IMG/VR virus record: IMGVR_UViG_3300021387_000147
Source: a virus
Lineage: Duplodnaviria > Caudoviricetes
Reading direction: 5' to 3' (one strand)
DNA length: 64,000 nt
The notes below the pieces were generated by a model, which saw nothing but the letters and a program-made list of their open reading frames with translations, ran no database searches and had not been told where the DNA came from. The position numbers and the translations under genes are program-made. Below, piece by piece: positions 12,324 through 39,263 of the stretch (positions within the stretch are counted from its first letter, which is position 1; the number at the start of each line of letters is the position of its first letter).

Positions 12324-12614
12324 ATGGAAAAATGTCCAATTTGCGGAAAGGAAAGTAAGAATAAGGCAGGTTTGAGTCTACACATGAAGAACATGCATAA
12401 GGATCAAACATTAAATGAAAACAAAGCTGCAGAAAAACTTATTCAGCCAGAATTAGTCACTGAAAATAAGGAAATTAAAGCAGAAGTCCAGAAGAAAGAG
12501 GATGAATTTGTATCAGTTAATGAGTCTGTCGACACTGATTTCGTTTCAGTAAAGAAGAATCCATATCGTGATTTATACCCTGGAGAAGGTGAAGTTATCA
12601 ACGAATGGTGCTAA
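12324..12614 (+). CDS. C2H2 zinc-finger protein
   Basis: CPIC-x12-H-x4-H at the N-terminus. Confidence 0.65.
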   Translation: MEKCPICGKESKNKAGLSLHMKNMHKDQTLNENKAAEKLIQPELVTENKEIKAEVQKKEDEFVSVNESVDTDFVSVKKNPYRDLYPGEGEVINEWC

Positions 12615-12630
12615 AAATGTAGAAACTTTT

Positions 12631-12671
12631 ATATGCACGGTTGTTTACGACCGTGCATATTTTTGTATATT
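12631..12671 (+). promoter_or_regulatory. Terminator hairpin with GTTTAC -35 in its loop plus TATATT -10
   Basis: ATATGCACGGT/ACCGTGCATAT stem; -10 at 12666-12671. Confidence 0.7.
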
Positions 12672-12718
12672 TGTATTATTAAACAATGATGTTTAAGATA
12701 TAAAGAGGTAAAAAGAAT

Positions 12719-14020
12719 ATGGCTAATTTTAGTTTTAAAGATAATATCAACAAAATCGGAAAATCTGGATTGAAGGATTTAATTGCAACAGAATTGGATG
12801 AAGTATCATTCCTATCAACTAACGTAGTTGTAATGAACCTTGTATTCAGTGGAAAGATTATGGGTGGTATTAAGAAAGGAACTATCAATACCATTTGTGC
12901 TCCTTCAGCAGAAGGTAAGTCATTGATTGGCTTGAACTGTTTGAAATCTGCTCAGAAGGCGGGAATGGACTGTGTAGTCGTTGACTCTGAAAGAGCATTC
13001 CCATTCGCTGTAGCTAAGGCACTTGGAATTGATATGTCCAAAATTCCAGTCTATCAGGCAGTAAACATTGGTGATATTAAGCGTATTTACGCAATGATTA
13101 ATGAAGGTGCAAAGGCAAAGGAACGTAAGAACATCTTCGTATTGTTTGACTCTTGGGGACCACTAGTATTCACAGGTTTAATGGATAAGGCAGAAAAGGG
13201 TTCAGATACAGCAGATATGGGTAGAACTGCAGGATTTAAGAATGAACTTGCAAATATCATTAACGCTTATGGTAATACAACATTCTGTGTTAACCACGTT
13301 TATGATTCACTACAAATGTATGGTGAAAAGTTCTGTATTCCAGGTGGTCGTCGTTTGTTCTTCTTGTCTGATGGTATTGGTCTAGCTTTGTCAGAAGCAC
13401 AATGGAAGAGCCCAGAAGATGACTCTTACATGGGTAAGTTGGTCACAATGGGTGTTAAGAAGGGACGTAGTGCTCGTGAACGTGGAAGAGTTCAGTTTGC
13501 AATTCGTGCTGACGGTGCTTTGGACCCATTCTATGGATTGTTTGATGACGCTATTGATAGTGGTGTATTGAAGAAAGTAGCACCAGGTAAGTATGTTCGT
13601 GATTTCGCAATCATTGACAAGAAAACTGGTGAAGATAAATCTGATATAGATATTGATACACATGAACCAAAGAGAACATGGCGTGAAGCAGATATGTATT
13701 GTGATCCAAAGTTGGAAGCAATATTCTGGATTCCTATTTTCCAGAATCCTGACTTCGTTAAATATGTTGAAACAAAGTATACATACGAAGCAGATGATAT
13801 GTTGTCAGCTAAGTACGATATTGTAGATATGATCAATGGTGATCAGGATCTTCCAACAGAAGAAGATTTGTATGAAGAAGTCGAAGATACTCGTCCTGAA
13901 GATTCAAAGGAAGCTGTTACTTTGGAAGATATTGGTATTACTTCAGAAGAAGCAATTAAGCCAGTTACTGAAGAAACAGCTGAAAAGGCAACAAAGAAAG
14001 GTAAAAAGAAGGCTAAGTAA
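12719..14020 (+). CDS. uvsX: UvsX/RecA-like recombinase
   Basis: APSAEGKS P-loop, VDSE, FDSWG, NHVY, PGG. Confidence 0.9.
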   Translation: MANFSFKDNINKIGKSGLKDLIATELDEVSFLSTNVVVMNLVFSGKIMGGIKKGTINTICAPSAEGKSLIGLNCLKSAQKAGMDCVVVDSERAFPFAVAKALGIDMSKIPVYQAVNIGDIKRIYAMINEGAKAKERKNIFVLFDSWGPLVFTGLMDKAEKGSDTADMGRTAGFKNELANIINAYGNTTFCVNHVYDSLQMYGEKFCIPGGRRLFFLSDGIGLALSEAQWKSPEDDSYMGKLVTMGVKKGRSARERGRVQFAIRADGALDPFYGLFDDAIDSGVLKKVAPGKYVRDFAIIDKKTGEDKSDIDIDTHEPKRTWREADMYCDPKLEAIFWIPIFQNPDFVKYVETKYTYEADDMLSAKYDIVDMINGDQDLPTEEDLYEEVEDTRPEDSKEAVTLEDIGITSEEAIKPVTEETAEKATKKGKKKAK

Positions 14021-29136: not shown

Positions 29137-29222
29137 TTAGAAAAATTATACTCTTATGATAGCAACTTTTTTCGAAAAGTTGCTATATTTGTATTACATT
29201 AAAGTTATTAATGAGGTATAAA

Positions 29223-29969
29223 ATGGATTATAATAAGAATTTAATTGATTTATTGGATGAAGCTTCTCAAATTCAGAAGCAGTTGATTATCAACAAAGAT
29301 GCAAACACAAAAATTATTGCTATTAGAGCAAATGACCCAGATGTTTCAGTTTGTTATACTTTGTCTGCACCAGAAGATTATTTGAACTTTACTGGAACAA
29401 AGCTTGCATTTTATGATTTCACAAAGTTTGTTAAGTGTTTCCGTGTATTCGATATTAAGAGTAAGGATGACAAGTTATCTGATACTCCAGTTCTTGATGG
29501 TGTTGTAAATGCAAACAATGAAACAACTGATATTATCATTAAGTCATCTAAGACAAAGCAGAAGATTTCTTATCGTGCTGCTCGTGCAGATGTTCTAACT
29601 CAGCCAGTATTCAATCAGATTAAGATGCCAGCAGTTGATTGTAAGTTTACAATCACTCAGGAAGAATTCAAGCATCTACGTTATATGTTGGATAGTGTTA
29701 TCGAAGCAGATACTATTAAGTTCACATGGGATAATGATATTTGTAAGATTACTTTGAAGAATATGAAGACATCTAACTATTATGATGTTGAATATAAGTT
29801 AACAACACCTGCAAATCTAAATGGTGTTCTAGAAATTCAGACTAAAGGTTTAAAACAGATGCCTGAAGCTGGATATACTGTAGAAGTTGCATCAGCTGGC
29901 CTTGTTCACTTTACAATGGACAGAAATGATGATATTAACATGAACCTTTACATTTCTAAGAAGAGTTAA
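29223..29969 (+). CDS. gp45: Sliding clamp gp45; start corrected to 29223
   Basis: Size, LAFYDF..F pattern, Y.V.V...G.V.F, proximity to gp44/62. Confidence 0.7.
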   Translation: MDYNKNLIDLLDEASQIQKQLIINKDANTKIIAIRANDPDVSVCYTLSAPEDYLNFTGTKLAFYDFTKFVKCFRVFDIKSKDDKLSDTPVLDGVVNANNETTDIIIKSSKTKQKISYRAARADVLTQPVFNQIKMPAVDCKFTITQEEFKHLRYMLDSVIEADTIKFTWDNDICKITLKNMKTSNYYDVEYKLTTPANLNGVLEIQTKGLKQMPEAGYTVEVASAGLVHFTMDRNDDINMNLYISKKS

Positions 29970-29971
29970 TT

Positions 29972-30388
29972 ATGAGCGGAGTAAATGATTTCCTAACAGA
30001 AGACCAAATGACAGATAGAACAAACGTCAATGACATGGATCCATGGGACGTCATTGAGTCTGCTTGTATTGGTATGGGTATTGTCTATAATCAGCCAGAT
30101 CCAAATTGTAAAAAGTGTCATGGTCGTGGATGGACTGGACGTAGGTTAGTTCCAGATGTAGATGCAAATGGTCAGCCAAAGTTAGATGAATATGGAAAAC
30201 AGATTTTCATTAAGGAACCAATTGCATGTAATTGTATTTTCCCTAAGAATGAATATGAAAAAGAAATTGGACCATCTGGTGCATATTTCAGACCACGTAA
30301 TAGAAAAGAACGTAGAGCACAACAAGCAAAAGTAAAGAAAACTGTTGGTCAACCTCTACCAGATAGTATAACTTTAAATAAAGGATAA
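29972..30388 (+). CDS. Zn-finger protein (CxxCxGxG...CxC)
   Basis: CKKCHGRG, ACNC. Confidence 0.6.
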   Translation: MSGVNDFLTEDQMTDRTNVNDMDPWDVIESACIGMGIVYNQPDPNCKKCHGRGWTGRRLVPDVDANGQPKLDEYGKQIFIKEPIACNCIFPKNEYEKEIGPSGAYFRPRNRKERRAQQAKVKKTVGQPLPDSITLNKG

Positions 30389-30396
30389 TTATGACA

Positions 30397-30490
30397 AATC
30401 GGGACAGTTGGTCGCCACCAATTGAATAGCTCTCAACTATTCTAACCGATTTTTTATAAATAAAATAAAGGTTATGGCGATAACCTTTTT
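30397..30490 (+). ncRNA. Structured RNA element (three-way junction plus kissing hairpin) preceding the endonuclease
   Basis: AATCGG/CCGATT, CAGTTGGT/ACCAATTG, GAATAG/CTATTC; AAAGGTTAT/ATAACCTTT; TCGCCA complementary to TGGCGA. Confidence 0.55.
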
Positions 30491-30514
30491 AATATAAAGG
30501 TAAAAGGAGATTAT

Positions 30515-31252
30515 ATGGAAATACAAGAAGGTATTTGTCCAGTTTGTGGTAAACCTACAAAATTAATTAAAAAAGGTTTATATCGTAAATATTGTTCTTA
30601 TGCATGTAGAAATTATATTTTAAATAAGACAATATTAAAAGATAAAGAAAAAGAGAATTTAAATAAAATTAGAAATTCTTTAATACAATTTAAAAAAGAT
30701 AATAGTTTAAATAAATATAAGAAATTATATACAACAGGTCATATATTAAAATATGATACTGATTTTTTATGTCATTGTGATATATGTGATAAAGATTTCA
30801 ATATTACAAGAGCAAATCTATATAATAGAATTATAATAAACAAAATAAATCCATGTCCAATTTGTCATAAAAAGAAAAGAGCATGTGGAAGATCTAAAAT
30901 TGAATATGAGTTATATGATTTTTTAAAAACATTTAATTTAGATATAAAAGATCATTATAAATTTTTTAAAAATAGAAAATTAGAATTTGATTTTTATATT
31001 CCAGAAATGAATATAGCATTTGAATTTGATGGAACATATTGGCATTGTGATCCAAGATTTTATGCACCAGATTATATTATGAAAGTTAAAAATATAACAG
31101 CAAAAGAAATATGGGAAAAAGATGCTGAAAAAGACAAATTAAGTGCGCAAAATAATGTTATATTATATAGAGTTAAAGAATACGATTGGAAAAATGATAA
31201 AGATCGTATAAAACAAGAAATCAAAAATTTAATAGGAATTAAAAATGTTTGA
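30515..31252 (+). CDS. Putative homing endonuclease (Zn fingers plus DUF559/Vsr-like PD-(D/E)XK domain)
   Basis: CPVCG..YCS..C, CDIC, CPIC; S..E, FDFYIP...AFEFDG.YWH, D..KD, E.DW. Confidence 0.8.
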   Translation: MEIQEGICPVCGKPTKLIKKGLYRKYCSYACRNYILNKTILKDKEKENLNKIRNSLIQFKKDNSLNKYKKLYTTGHILKYDTDFLCHCDICDKDFNITRANLYNRIIINKINPCPICHKKKRACGRSKIEYELYDFLKTFNLDIKDHYKFFKNRKLEFDFYIPEMNIAFEFDGTYWHCDPRFYAPDYIMKVKNITAKEIWEKDAEKDKLSAQNNVILYRVKEYDWKNDKDRIKQEIKNLIGIKNV

Positions 31253-32210
31253 AAATAATGATAATCCAAAATGTTTCCTTTGGGTGGAACTTTTTAGACC
31301 AACTACAGTTAAAGATGTAATTTTACCTAAAGACTATAAAAATTTCTTTAGAAAGATTTTGAAGACAAAGGATTTACCTAATCTTTTGTTATCATCATCT
31401 ACGCCAGGAACTGGTAAGACTACTATTGCTAAAGCTATTGCTAAAGATTTAGGTGCTGAAACACTATATATCAATGCTTCTAAGGATAGTGGTAAGGATA
31501 TTGTTAAGACAACTATTTCTGAATTCGCAATGACAATGGGTTTCTCTGGATTTAATGAAGATGCAGAAACTGCAAAGCAAAAGATTGTCATTCTTGATGA
31601 AGCAGACGGTTTGTCAGTAGATTGTCAAAAGGCATTACGTGCATTTATTGAAGATTATCCTAATGCATGTCGCTTTATCATGACTTGTAATTTCCCTGCA
31701 AAGATTATTGATGCTCTACATGAAGGTAGAACAATGGAATTCGAGTTTGACTTTAAGAAACCTGAATATGTTGCAGAAATGAAGGAACAGACAGTAAAGC
31801 GTATTGAAGGTATTTTGAAGTTCGAAAAGATTAAGTATGACAAGCAAGCTATTGTTGACTTAGTTGAAGCACAATATCCATCTATTCGTAAAGCAATTGC
31901 AATCTGTCAGAAGTATGCAATGATGAAGGATGAAATCGATAAGGATATTGTCTATTATAAGAATATTGGTGAAGAACTAAGTAATTTGGTTCTTAATAAG
32001 AAGCATACTGAAGCACGTAAATATATTAACGAACATGGTTTGTCATACTCAGATGTATTCAGTTATTTCTTTGTTGAGTTAATTCCTAAGTTAAAGAACA
32101 AAGGACTTGGATATAAGTATTTGTCAGACTATGAATATAGATGTTCATTTAGTGCAGACCCATCTATTCAGATTGCGGCATGCATGATTGATTTATTTAG
32201 TTGTATTTAA
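31245..32210 (+). CDS. gp44: Clamp loader large subunit gp44
   Basis: LWVELFRP, PGTGKTT, ILDEAD, Q.ALR, FIMTCN. Confidence 0.93.
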   Translation: MFENNDNPKCFLWVELFRPTTVKDVILPKDYKNFFRKILKTKDLPNLLLSSSTPGTGKTTIAKAIAKDLGAETLYINASKDSGKDIVKTTISEFAMTMGFSGFNEDAETAKQKIVILDEADGLSVDCQKALRAFIEDYPNACRFIMTCNFPAKIIDALHEGRTMEFEFDFKKPEYVAEMKEQTVKRIEGILKFEKIKYDKQAIVDLVEAQYPSIRKAIAICQKYAMMKDEIDKDIVYYKNIGEELSNLVLNKKHTEARKYINEHGLSYSDVFSYFFVELIPKLKNKGLGYKYLSDYEYRCSFSADPSIQIAACMIDLFSCI

Positions 32211-32211
32211 T

Positions 32212-32916
32212 ATGTTTGATAGTCAGAAAATAAATTTCGATGATTGGTTATTAGGATATAAACACGGTGTATACGTGTTTACTTCCGATAGCTGTCATCT
32301 TTGTCAAGAATATAAGAAGTCTATTGAGTATATCAATAATCATTTCTTATATTTTGTTGAAGTCACTACAGAACAGCAGAAAGAAGTCTTAGCAAAAACA
32401 ATGAGACGTTCTGCTCTTCCTATGACTGCTTGTTATAAAGATAATAATCTACAATTCGTCCGTCTTGGACAATTGTTTGATTTACAAATGAAAGAAATCC
32501 TTGAATTCTTAAAGGACTTTCCAAAAGAACCTTTGACTAAACAAGAGATTTTAGAAAAAATTGAAGATGCTAAGAAGCAATGTAAGTTTGCTTATTATTT
32601 GTTCACTCAGACAACAACTGAAGATGAACGTCAAAAGATTATTCAAAAATCTTTTGGTTTCCATGAAATACCTGTTGATATTGAAAGAATTAGTCCAAAT
32701 TTAGATAAAAACGATAGAATAAAACAGTTAAAAGGTGAGATACCTTTCGTAAAATTAGTTATATTTAAAGATGGCAGATCAAGTGCTGTATCTGAATTTG
32801 GCCAAGCTATAATGATGGAATTTGCAAACTTAAAATCAAATCCAAATGCCAATCAAGATACTTTTGTAGTTAGAATGATTCCAGAGGTTTTAAATGATAA
32901 CAATAGTTCCAACTAA
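32212..32916 (+). CDS. Thioredoxin-like (CxxC) domain protein; start corrected
   Basis: VFTSDSCHLC..., LPMT cis-Pro-like motif. Confidence 0.55.
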   Translation: MFDSQKINFDDWLLGYKHGVYVFTSDSCHLCQEYKKSIEYINNHFLYFVEVTTEQQKEVLAKTMRRSALPMTACYKDNNLQFVRLGQLFDLQMKEILEFLKDFPKEPLTKQEILEKIEDAKKQCKFAYYLFTQTTTEDERQKIIQKSFGFHEIPVDIERISPNLDKNDRIKQLKGEIPFVKLVIFKDGRSSAVSEFGQAIMMEFANLKSNPNANQDTFVVRMIPEVLNDNNSSN

Positions 32917-39226: not shown

Positions 39227-39263
39227 ATTAAATATCTCCTTAGTATATTTATAAAAATTAAAA

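What the first reader, a model, noticed from the sequence alone, without database searches (positions are those of the whole stretch)
30391..31266. Homing endonuclease inserted into codon 4 of gp44, carrying a three-way-junction RNA with a kissing-loop partner
Seen: an orphan SD+ATG ACA AAT (30391) precedes the insert. Removing 30400-31265 (AATC at both junctions) gives MTN-PKCFLWVE, a clean gp44 N-terminus, and the element supplies a new gp44 start at 31245. The left end folds into an outer stem AATCGG/CCGATT enclosing hairpins CAGTTGGT-cgcc-ACCAATTG and GAATAG-ctctcaa-CTATTC. After a late promoter (TATAAATA 30455-30462) comes hairpin AAAGGTTAT-ggcg-ATAACCTTT. TCGCCA and TGGCGA are perfectly complementary. 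Known: T4 homing endonuclease genes are silenced on early transcripts by RNA structures that late promoters truncate. Inference: an uncharacterised RNA motif acting as a pseudoknot switch, a ribozyme, or a splicing/bypass element.
Basis: partly seen in the sequence, partly recalled or inferred. Interest (0 to 1): 0.72.

Follow-up and report, generated by a model that had tools for sequence, protein, structure and literature searches.

The report
Kissing-loop leader RNA of a homing endonuclease
A selfish DNA-cutting-enzyme gene has landed just inside the start of a T4-like phage's clamp-loader gene, and it carries a folded RNA leader, absent from Rfam, whose loops pair with a hairpin beyond the gene's own late promoter and probably keep the nuclease off until late in infection.

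Summary
An 866-bp, AT-rich cassette (30400-31265) sits after codon 3 of gp44. About 270 near-identical insert-free alleles are 317 aa and start MTEE(Q/K)CFLWVE. The window's gp44 is 321 aa and starts MFENNDNPKCFLWVE, from a start codon inside the cassette.

The cassette encodes a Vsr-like (EDxHD-type) homing endonuclease. The three-way junction, the TATAAATA motif and the downstream hairpin are all present.

I collected 14 distinct copies of this leader, upstream of at least three unrelated nuclease families. All four helices covary (19 of 23 pairs change on both sides).

The kissing pair is exactly complementary in every copy, with a different sequence each time. The summed own-partner run is 72 nt, against 31.6±2.8 for swapped partners.

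In nine copies ("type B") the other junction loop is a 6-10 nt complement of the Shine-Dalgarno sequence. In the window's "type A" copy that pairing is only 4 nt and not significant.

Best reading: read-through transcripts are translationally silenced, and this is relieved on late-promoter transcripts that lack the junction. Nothing supports splicing, bypass or ribozyme activity.

It is a new structural variant of the known T-even endonuclease control. Notes from this scan report the same kissing-loop leader on other DNA.

The parts
30380..30399 (+). Orphaned original gp44 ribosome-binding site and first three codons (AAAGGA ... ATG ACA AAT). It now opens a 12-codon ORF (30391-30429) that runs through P1 and hairpin 1.
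   Evidence: The insert-free allele G001:C41 reads ...aggaaataATGACAGAAGAACAGTGTTTCC. All 14 full-length (317-aa) cluster members I printed start MTEE(Q/K)C.
30400..31265 (+). Inserted mobile cassette (866 bp): leader RNA, endonuclease gene and a donated start for gp44. The end points are ambiguous by the 4-nt repeat AATC.
   Evidence: G001:C41 matches the flanks at 95-97% and lacks the insert. GC is 16-20% against about 32%. The right end at 31265/31266 coincides with the point where another locus in run X2 diverges.
30396..30452 (+). Three-way junction: P1 (30396-30402 / 30446-30452), J1 GA, hairpin 1 (30405-24, loop carrying TCGCCA), hairpin 2 (30425-41, loop CUCUCAA), J3 CUAA.
   Evidence: Fold. 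Covariation. Conserved junction letters G-GA-CA ... CUAA-C in all copies.
30455..30462 (+). T4-type late-promoter motif TATAAATA, between the junction and hairpin 3. The predicted start lies near 30468, so late transcripts would lack the junction.
   Evidence: The motif occurs 22 times in the window against 11.9±3.2 expected, and its strand follows gene orientation. The transcription start is not mapped.
30467..30488 (+). Hairpin 3. Its loop region TGGCGA (30475-30480) is the kissing partner of the hairpin-1 loop.
   Evidence: The calculated duplex energy of the loop pair is -11.6 kcal/mol.
30504..30517 (+). Shine-Dalgarno AAGGAG (30504-30509) and the ATG of the endonuclease gene (30515-30517).
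   Evidence: The SD stays mostly unpaired in nested folds of both long and late transcripts.
30515..31252 (+). Free-standing homing endonuclease, 245 aa: N-terminal Zn-ribbons and a C-terminal Vsr-like/EDxHD nuclease domain (E170, D172, H177, D179).
   Evidence: PHROG 559 and 3339. Invariant residues in alignment A4. AlphaFold model pLDDT 86. Top Foldseek hits are Vsr 1cw0/1vsr and I-Bth0305I 3r3p.
31234..31265 (+). Donated translation start for gp44: SD AGGA (31234-37), then ATG TTT GAA AAT AAT GAT AAT (31245-65). It overlaps the endonuclease stop (TGA 31250-52).
   Evidence: The same 30 nt open a different gene behind a late promoter in sheep-gut run X2.
31245..32210 (+). gp44, the clamp-loader large subunit: 321 aa, intact, four residues longer than the insert-free alleles.
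   Evidence: Pfam AAA and Gp44_lid. 97% identity to the 317-aa cluster P0001.

Best explanation
A free-standing Vsr-like homing-endonuclease cassette has inserted after codon 3 of gp44 in a T4-like phage from animal-gut metagenomes. It carries its own expression-control module.

The module has these parts, in order:
- a three-way-junction RNA;
- a T4-type late promoter;
- a hairpin;
- the SD and ATG of the nuclease.

On transcripts that read in from upstream (the early/middle mRNA of the 45-44-62 region), the junction is present. One of its loops kisses the loop of the downstream hairpin. In the related type B copies the second junction loop also pairs directly with the SD. Together this should clamp the initiation region and keep the nuclease untranslated.

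Transcripts started at TATAAATA begin at the foot of hairpin 3. They lack the junction, so the SD is free and the nuclease is made late.

The cassette's 3' end supplies gp44 with a new SD and ATG, so the essential gene stays expressed.

Shown:
- the insertion, by presence/absence polymorphism;
- the new gp44 start;
- the nuclease fold;
- the RNA secondary structure;
- the covarying loop-loop pairing;
- the anti-SD complementarity in type B copies.

Inferred:
- that TATAAATA fires late;
- that the kissing complex blocks ribosome loading, particularly in the window's own type A copy;
- that the nuclease cuts the insert-free allele.
For: Insertion:
- G001:C41 is 95-97% identical on both flanks and lacks 30320/30400-31252.
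- 270 clustered gp44 alleles at about 97% identity are 317 aa and start MTEE(Q/K)CFLWVE.
- The insert has a GC trough.
- The insert-bearing allele occurs as single contigs in independent sheep-gut and gut DNA runs and in IMG/VR locus L006.

RNA secondary structure:
- 3 copies: 14 of 29 pairs change on both sides, 98.8% paired.
- 5 type A copies: 17 of 29 pairs, and 5 of the 6 kissing pairs covary.
- 12 copies: 19 of 23 nested pairs, 96.9% paired, covariation score 0.853 against 0.237±0.028 for shuffles and 0.08-0.15 for slid partners.

Kissing pair:
- Own-copy Watson-Crick runs are 6-8 nt in 11 non-redundant copies.
- Their sum is 72, against 31.6±2.8 for swapped partners (0 of 7292 as high) and 33.3±2.8 for shuffled loops (0 of 5000).

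Anti-SD in type B:
- Runs of 6-9 nt end 1-8 nt before the AUG in the five copies whose AUG is on the contig (L153 is cut at the SD).
- Their sum is 43, against 21.8±1.8 for swapped partners (0 of 265).
- L176 against L184 shows compensatory changes: ACCUCUAG/CUAGAGGU against AUCUCCAG/CUGGAGAU.

Context:
- Downstream ORFs are GIY-YIG, HNH, DUF7487/PD-(D/E)XK-like and Vsr-like nucleases, so the leader is a nuclease-gene module rather than part of one gene.
- TATAAATA is enriched in the window and its strand matches gene orientation.
- An RNA-library contig spans 30339-30571, so molecules carrying both junction and nuclease start exist in RNA libraries.
- The same logic is established for I-TevI/II/III, segB and Aeh1 mobE (PMC2988022).
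Against: - In the window's own type A copy, the loop-2 complement to the SD is only 4 nt (UCUC/GAGA, -4.5 kcal/mol). Across type A copies it is not better than shuffled loops (p about 0.08).
- Nested folding leaves the SD 74-83% unpaired with or without the junction, so any repression would rest on the kiss alone.
- The old gp44 SD and ATG still stand in front of the junction. Ribosomes translating the 12-codon orphan ORF would melt P1 and hairpin 1.
- No transcription start is mapped. Late-promoter use in this uncultured phage is inferred from the motif alone, and gp55/gp33 were not looked for.
- RNA-library contigs may derive from contaminating DNA.
- Most copies were fished with patterns that contained TTTTATAAATA, so the constancy of the promoter is partly built in. 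Three copies found without that requirement: L005 and L141 have the motif, and L143b has only TATATAAA.
Confidence: 0.62

Rival explanations
1. The junction and kissing complex is mainly an RNA processing or decay signal. It would be a compact tertiary fold recognised by a host or phage RNase, cutting read-through transcripts in front of the nuclease gene. That would lower nuclease mRNA and separate it from the upstream message. SD masking would be secondary or absent.
For: - T4 segB, segG and Aeh1 mobE transcripts are processed by RNase E (PMC2988022).
- One RNA-library contig (X15, record 1) ends at 30383, just 5' of the junction, and runs straight into adapter sequence.
- In type A copies the SD is not clearly masked.
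- The third base pair of hairpin 1 is non-Watson-Crick in every copy I read, as a recognition feature might be.
Against: - A contig end is not a mapped RNA end.
- Nine type B copies carry a 6-10 nt covarying anti-SD loop, which a pure cleavage signal does not need.
- gp44 lies downstream on the same read-through RNA and would be cut off from its promoter.
Confidence: 0.15
2. The junction followed by the U-run works as a transcriptional insulator or terminator. It would stop upstream transcription from entering the cassette, so the nuclease is transcribed only from its own late promoter.
For: - P1 is followed directly by UUUUUU in the window and in L005.
- T4 mobE and segF have 5' terminators (PMC2988022).
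Against: - The terminator scan finds nothing in 29900-31400.
- P1 is short, and in type B copies it is A-U only.
- L084 has UAACUUUU.
- gp44, an early/middle replication gene, lies downstream and needs read-through.
- An RNA-library contig crosses the site (30339-30571).
- This reading does not explain the loop-loop covariation with a hairpin beyond the promoter.
Confidence: 0.07
3. The element is a self-cleaving ribozyme, a splicing element or a translational-bypass element that removes or skips the 866-nt insert, so that the original gp44 start (MTN...) is still used.
For: - Removing 30400-31265 restores an 11-residue N-terminus (MTNPKCFLWVE), the same length as MTEEKCFLWVE.
- Three-way junctions with loop-loop contacts occur in hammerhead ribozymes (my own knowledge).
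Against: - No Rfam intron or ribozyme match even at E up to 10.
- Only 6 unpaired junction nucleotides are conserved.
- The same leader sits in intergenic sites (a tRNA cluster in L005/L143; between gp44 and gp62 in L144), where nothing needs splicing.
- gp44 has its own SD and ATG.
- The orphan ORF stops after 12 codons.
- No joint across the insert in four runs.
Confidence: 0.03

Closest known systems
RBS-sequestering leaders with an embedded late or middle promoter in T-even homing-endonuclease genes (I-TevI, I-TevII, I-TevIII, segB, Aeh1 mobE; also T4 e and soc) - PMC2988022
   Same: Both lie upstream of a homing-endonuclease ORF. The promoter is placed so that the short late transcript lacks the 5' pairing partner. 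Long read-through transcripts are the silenced form. Type B relatives pair directly with the SD.
   Different: The known cases are single local hairpins. Here a three-way junction presents two loops that dock at a distance across the promoter. One loop makes a loop-loop kiss with a third hairpin, and in type B the other pairs with the SD. Each copy has a private loop sequence, and the module is shared by at least three unrelated nuclease families. Rfam has no model for it, and I found no paper on it.
Gene-splitting homing-endonuclease insertions in T4-like phages (Aeh1 mobE in nrdA; T4 mobA between genes 60 and 39) - partly from my own knowledge, Aeh1 mobE named in PMC2988022
   Same: A free-standing endonuclease gene lies inside an essential replication or nucleotide-metabolism gene, which stays functional.
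   Different: Here the cut falls after codon 3, so nothing useful is split off. The three codons are abandoned, and the cassette donates a new SD, ATG and seven codons fused in frame.
EDxHD/Vsr-like homing endonucleases (I-Bth0305I, PDB 3r3p; fractured-gene endonucleases, PMC2677866)
   Same: The C-terminal domain has a Vsr-like fold, with conserved E...D...H.D residues and a free-standing mobile context.
   Different: Sequence identity to solved members is about 15-18%. The N-terminal Zn-ribbon DNA-binding region differs. There is no Pfam hit.
Kissing-loop antisense control (ColE1 RNA I/II, R1 CopA/CopT) - my own knowledge
   Same: Recognition runs through 6-7 nt loop-loop helices whose sequence sets the specificity.
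   Different: Those systems act in trans between two RNAs. Here both partners lie on one mRNA and are separated by a promoter that decides whether the 5' partner is present.

Membership tests
T-even type homing-endonuclease leader (RBS sequestration relieved by an internal late promoter) | Lies immediately upstream of a homing-endonuclease ORF | tested here: met
   The leader 30396-30488 precedes the ORF 30515-31252. The same holds in every other copy whose downstream ORF could be read.
T-even type homing-endonuclease leader (RBS sequestration relieved by an internal late promoter) | A late promoter is placed so that late transcripts lack the 5' pairing partner | tested here: inconclusive
   TATAAATA 30455-30462 lies between the junction and hairpin 3. 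The motif is enriched and matches gene orientation in the window. The start site is not mapped, and promoter constancy across copies is partly built into the search patterns.
T-even type homing-endonuclease leader (RBS sequestration relieved by an internal late promoter) | The SD is base-paired in the long transcript | tested here: inconclusive
   Met in nine type B relatives (6-10 nt, covarying). In the window's type A copy the complement is only 4 nt and not above chance.
T-even type homing-endonuclease leader (RBS sequestration relieved by an internal late promoter) | The structure is a single local hairpin | tested here: not met
   It is a three-way junction plus a distant hairpin joined by a loop-loop helix.
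Free-standing homing endonuclease, Vsr-like / EDxHD class | Vsr-like nuclease fold | tested here: met
   Model pLDDT 85.9. The top Foldseek PDB hits are Vsr 1cw0_A/1vsr and I-Bth0305I 3r3p, each with probability 1.00, E 4-8e-3 and TM to target 0.53-0.75. The E-values are modest.
Free-standing homing endonuclease, Vsr-like / EDxHD class | Conserved catalytic E, D, H, D residues | tested here: met
   In the 34-sequence alignment A4, E170, H177 and D179 are invariant and D172 is at least 90% conserved, within FEFDGTYWHCD.
Free-standing homing endonuclease, Vsr-like / EDxHD class | Presence/absence polymorphism at one site among near-identical genomes | tested here: met
Free-standing homing endonuclease, Vsr-like / EDxHD class | Cleaves the insert-free allele near the insertion site | not testable with these tools
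   This needs an enzyme assay on the MTEEQ allele.
Group I/II intron, intein or gene-60-type bypass element | A ribozyme core, or an in-frame ORF with splice junctions, or matched take-off and landing codons | tested here: not met
   No Rfam hit at E up to 10. The nuclease ORF is not in frame with the orphan start. A stop follows after 12 codons. No joined form was seen.
Any Rfam 15 family | Covariance-model match | tested here: not met
   cmscan of 29500-32000 at E up to 10 returned three chance-level hits, none in the leader. ARAGORN found no tRNA.
T4 gp44 clamp-loader large subunit | AAA+ module and gp44 lid domain, next to a gp45-like clamp | tested here: met
   PF00004 and PF21328. The ORF 29211-29969 matches phrog_223, a processivity factor.

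The most novel reading that the evidence does not exclude
The junction/kissing leader may be a new, widespread class of portable cis-regulatory RNA that makes a homing-endonuclease cassette self-contained. Wherever the cassette lands, read-through transcripts would be silenced by a two-point clamp (a loop-loop kiss plus an anti-SD contact), and only the cassette's own late promoter would give translatable mRNA.

The private loop code of each copy would keep several cassettes in one genome from cross-talking. It could even allow action in trans on matching late mRNAs.

That property would explain how such a cassette can be tolerated inside the first codons of an essential early gene.
Probability: 0.4. 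Interest if true: 0.78.

Novelty: new variant of a known kind. Interest (0 to 1): 0.66.

Why it matters
Homing endonucleases must be kept quiet to be tolerated. In T4 this is done by simple hairpins.

Here the same end is reached by a modular RNA with a programmable loop-loop code. The module travels with at least three unrelated nuclease families, and it is missing from Rfam and from the papers searched.

It gives RNA biologists a natural, strongly covarying example of a cis kissing complex that spans a promoter. The clear prediction of long versus short transcripts can be tested with reporters and compensatory mutations.

It also gives annotators a marker for mobile nuclease cassettes in uncultured T4-like phages.

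The gp44 case shows that such a cassette can land inside the first codons of an essential replication gene and persist in natural populations, because it brings a replacement translation start.

Tried and rejected
RNA family and repeat searches
- An Rfam scan of the region at E up to 10 gave nothing relevant.
- ARAGORN found no tRNA-like call.
- The window holds no second copy: repeats, model R1 with filters off, a regex, a scan for TATAAATA sites flanked by complementary loops, and model R2.
- The R1 hits at window 12608-12724 and in L140 are an ordinary terminator plus the SD of a UvsX-like gene, not copies.
- Most hits of the loose DNA patterns were chance matches. I removed them by the promoter filter and the covariance model.

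Pairings tested and dropped
- Type A loop 2 pairing with the SD: 4-5 nt, p about 0.08, so not claimed.
- An alternative pairing of the hairpin-3 3' arm (ACCUUU) with the downstream AAAGGU, suggested in note e1-5482227, is possible only in the window copy. L005 and L084 lack it by inspection of their sequences.
- A/U-rich pairing between the promoter RNA and the AUG region is inconsistent across copies.
- Nested folding of long against late transcripts shows no SD sequestration.

Other negatives
- The terminator scan found none.
- Pfam gives no significant domain for the nuclease, and a PDB sequence search gave nothing. The fold search was needed.
- Phage GenBank records hold no relative of the locus.
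- 200 genomes of G001's family hold no further allele of the locus.

Origin of the donated start
- The run X2 locus sharing MFENNDN was not found in the window, in G001-G003 or in IMG/VR.

Tools and read data
The insertion sites of the 88%- and 67%-identical nuclease homologues P0136-P0138 therefore could not be examined.
- Read laying showed no joint across 30400-31265. The runs are contigs, so this does not prove absence, and they give no transcript ends.
- Complex prediction was not used, because no protein-protein claim is made.
Full report
**1. What is in the sequence**

- A Cys-rich 138-aa ORF ends at 30388.
- An SD (AAAGGA) and ATG ACA AAT follow at 30391-30399.
- The frame then runs into CGG GAC ... 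and stops after 12 codons, at TAG 30427-30429.
- Positions 30396-30452 form a three-way junction:
  - P1, AAAUCGG/CCGAUUU;
  - hairpin 1, CAGUUGGU-CGCC-ACCAAUUG;
  - hairpin 2, AAUAG-CUCUCAA-CUAUU.
- TATAAATA lies at 30455-30462.
- Hairpin 3 (AAAGGUUAU-GGCG-AUAACCUUU) lies at 30467-30488.
- AAGGAG and the ATG of a 245-aa ORF (30515-31252) follow.
- The gp44 ORF (31245-32210) starts four bases before that ORF's stop codon.

RNAfold gives the junction plus hairpin as MFE and centroid. The z-score against shuffles is only -1.9, so the single sequence proves little.

**2. The insertion is real**

The nearest held genome (G001, contig 41) matches window 29200-30319 at 97% and 31253-32900 at 95%. 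Only six bases lie between the two matches.

There gp44 starts ...aggaaataATG ACA GAA GAA CAG TGT TTC CTT TGG, which is MTEEQCFLWVE.

The closest gp44 cluster in the 5.8-billion-protein collection is 97% identical and has 270 member sequences. It is 317 aa, and all 14 full-length members I read begin MTEE(Q/K)CFLWVE. More distant relatives begin MADNNCFLWVE, MANDCFLWVE and the like.

The window's protein is 321 aa and begins MFENNDNPKCFLWVE. Deleting 30400-31265 gives MTNPKCFLWVE, exactly the length of the insert-free N-terminus.

GC drops to 16-20% inside the insert, against about 32% outside.

The occupied allele is not an assembly accident.
- An IMG/VR contig (L006) carries it.
- Single contigs of two independent gut DNA runs (X2 sheep, X8) span the whole of 30250-31450 at 97-98% identity.

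Two refinements.
- The 3' tail of the upstream ORF (30320-30388) also differs from G001. The exchanged tract is therefore longer on the left than the cassette itself, as expected if flanking donor sequence came along.
- Run X2 holds another locus, at a depth like the phage's. It consists of a late promoter, 9 nt, and a sequence identical to window 31236-31265 (GAATTAAAAATGTTTGAAAATAATGATAAT). It then diverges exactly at 31265/31266 into AAAGAATATA... (MFENNDNKEYINNYIKM...).
  - The "new gp44 start" therefore looks like the 5' end of another gene that travelled with the cassette.
  - This rests on short contig matches. I could not find that locus elsewhere.

**3. The protein**

Pfam gives nothing significant. 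PHROGs 559 and 3339 ("HNH/homing endonuclease") match.

An alignment of 34 homologues has invariant D159, E170, G173, Y175, H177 and D179. An AlphaFold model built on it has pLDDT 86.

The best PDB fold matches are Vsr endonuclease (1cw0, 1vsr) and the catalytic domain of the homing endonuclease I-Bth0305I (3r3p). Each has probability 1.0 and TM to target up to 0.75, but modest E-values.

It is therefore a Vsr-like/EDxHD homing endonuclease with N-terminal Zn-ribbons. "DUF559-type" is right at superfamily level only.

**4. The RNA is a family, and it covaries**

A BLAST hit in G001 contig 49 (L005) showed the same architecture behind a tRNA cluster, in front of a different nuclease.

Pattern scans and two covariance models (R1, R2) then recovered more copies from IMG/VR, JGI metagenomes and GTDB genomes.

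I count 14 distinct three-way-junction copies.
- Type A: window/L006, L005, L084, L143b, L144.
- Type B: L141, L153, L176, L184, L180a, L180b, L183, L192, L188.
- Variants: L191 (two hairpins), L204 (no internal promoter), L015 (partial).

All copies share the junction letters G-GA-CA...CUAA-C. The helices differ in sequence.

On the model-fitted alignment of 12 distinct copies:
- 96.9% of cells pair;
- 19 of 23 nested pairs change on both sides;
- the covariation score is 0.853, against 0.237±0.028 for shuffles (0 of 500 as high) and 0.08-0.15 for slid partners.

A fitted alignment leans toward its model. The MAFFT alignment of the first three copies, made before any model existed, gave the same picture: 14 of 29 pairs, 98.8% paired.

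**5. The kiss**

In type A copies the hairpin-1 loop is the exact complement of the hairpin-3 loop:
- window, UCGCCA/UGGCGA;
- L005, CUACCA/UGGUAG;
- L084, CUCCUA/UAGGAG;
- L143b, CUCUAA/UUAGAG;
- L144, CUUCUAA/UUAGAAG.

In the alignment, 5 of the 6 kissing columns change on both sides, and 100% of cells pair.

In type B copies it is the hairpin-2 loop that matches hairpin 3. Examples are UUUGCGG/CCGCAAA, UUCCUAG/CUAGGAA, UUUCCGG/CCGGAAA, UUACCG/CGGUAA and CUGCCA/UGGCAG.

Over 11 non-redundant copies:
- the own-partner Watson-Crick runs sum to 72 nt;
- swapped partners give 31.6±2.8 (maximum 43, 0 of 7292 as high);
- shuffled loops give 33.3±2.8;
- the other junction loop of the same copy gives 38.

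Calculated duplex energies are -7 to -12.5 kcal/mol.

The pairing partners straddle the TATAAATA motif in every copy with a canonical motif.

**6. What it does**

In type B copies the remaining loop (hairpin 1) is a 6-10 nt exact complement of the SD-to-AUG spacer of the nuclease gene:
- L176, AAACCUCUAG;
- L184, AAUCUCCAG;
- L180a, UGCUUUCC;
- L180b, ACCACUCC;
- L188, AUGUCUCC.

The sum of these runs is 43, against 21.8±1.8 for swapped partners (0 of 265 as high). L176 and L184 differ by compensatory changes on both sides.

L191 replaces the loop with a linear 10-nt anti-SD and keeps the kiss.

So at family level the 5' module masks the ribosome-binding site, and the kiss provides a second anchor. 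A promoter sits between the mask and its target.

This is the logic shown experimentally for I-TevI and proposed for I-TevII/III, segB and Aeh1 mobE: long transcripts are silent, and late transcripts lack the inhibitory partner (PMC2988022).

TATAAATA is twice as frequent in the window as expected, and its strand follows gene orientation. This supports its use as the late promoter here.

The predicted start, about 6 nt downstream of the motif (T4 rule, my own knowledge), falls on the first pair or two of hairpin 3. Late mRNA would therefore keep a 5' hairpin but lose the junction.

**7. Limits for the window's own copy**

- Type A loop 2 (CUCUCAA) matches the SD by only 4 nt. Across type A copies this is not significant (p about 0.08).
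- Nested folding leaves the SD open in both RNAs. Repression by the kiss alone, through steric or tertiary effects, is an inference.
- The orphan gp44 SD and ATG would send ribosomes through P1 and hairpin 1. In the MFE the orphan AUG pairs with the promoter's UUAUAA as an extension of P1, which might limit that. The extension is specific to this copy.
- An RNA-library contig covers 30339-30571 without a break. Long molecules therefore exist, but contigs cannot show ends, strand or level.

**8. Rivals**

- A processing or decay signal is possible and not exclusive (0.15).
- A terminator or insulator is unlikely (0.07). No terminator-like site is found, P1 is weak, and gp44 lies downstream.
- Ribozyme, splicing or bypass has nothing in its favour beyond the shape of a three-way junction (0.03). 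Rfam gives no match, the same leader sits in intergenic sites, and no joined form was seen.

**9. Context and novelty**

The leader precedes GIY-YIG (L143b), HNH (L144, L180), DUF7487/PD-(D/E)XK-like (L176, L183), C2H2-finger (L084) and Vsr-like (window) ORFs.

- In L144 the cassette sits between gp44 and gp62.
- In L143 two cassettes sit in a tRNA cluster.

I found no description of the fold in Rfam 15 or in the papers searched. A 2023 catalogue of more than 10,000 candidate viral RNAs (PMC10690425) does not mention it in its text, and I did not check its supplement.

Earlier notes of this scan report the same "kissing-loop leader RNA of homing endonucleases" on other genomes. A first-stage note exists for this very place. 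I reached the same reading independently on my own loci.

I class the RNA as a new structural variant of a known regulatory principle. I class the gp44 insertion as a new member of the known set of endonuclease insertions into essential T4-like genes.

Noticed in passing
window 39246-39253 (- strand) and about 90 nt on either side: A TATAAATA motif has an upstream hairpin whose loop holds UCCUUA, the complement of the downstream SD UAAGGA(G) of a gene that did not look like a nuclease gene. It may be a simple anti-SD/late-promoter arrangement, as in T4 e and soc, or a 6-nt coincidence.
   Followed up: no
whole window: TATAAATA occurs 22 times against 11.9±3.2 expected. Sites are mostly on the + strand up to 34 kb and all on the - strand beyond, following gene orientation. 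The phage probably uses T4-type late promoters. I did not look for gp55/gp33.
   Followed up: partly
window 31236-31265; run X2: Another locus in a sheep-gut metagenome consists of a late promoter and then the same 30 nt (SD plus ATG TTT GAA AAT AAT GAT AAT). It then diverges into AAAGAATATATAAATAATTATATCAAAATG. This is a possible source of gp44's donated start. It was not found in the window, in G001-G003 or in IMG/VR.
   Followed up: partly
window 30320-30388: The upstream 138-aa Cys-rich ORF has a tail 20 codons longer (AQQAKVKKTVGQPLPDSITLNKG) than the insert-free allele in G001:C41 (TKRK). This suggests that flanking donor DNA was co-converted with the cassette.
   Followed up: partly
L144:2132-2964; L143:417-2383: In a more distant T4-like contig, an HNH cassette with the same leader sits between gp44 and gp62, and its stop overlaps the gp62 start. 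In L143 two cassettes lie in tandem in a tRNA cluster: one encodes a nuclease I did not classify, the other a GIY-YIG nuclease.
   Followed up: partly
hairpin 1, third base pair (window G30407-U30422): This pair is non-Watson-Crick in every copy I read: G-U in 9 of the 12 aligned copies and also in L188; A-C in L005; C-C in L143b and L144. A conserved non-canonical position may be a recognition or tertiary-contact site.
   Followed up: no
window 30383 (run X15, record 1): A 1661-nt contig from an RNA library ends at 30383, just before the orphan start and P1, and runs straight into Illumina adapter sequence. It may mark an RNA 3' end or a cleavage site. A contig end alone is not evidence.
   Followed up: no
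L191:3437-3532; L204:2785-2882: These are variant leaders. L191 has one upstream hairpin that kisses hairpin 3 (TTGCAG/CTGCAA), plus a linear 10-nt anti-SD (ATACGCCTCT/AGAGGCGTAT). L204 keeps the junction, with a loop complementary to the SD region (CCAAGC/GCTTGG), but has no internal TATAAATA.
   Followed up: partly
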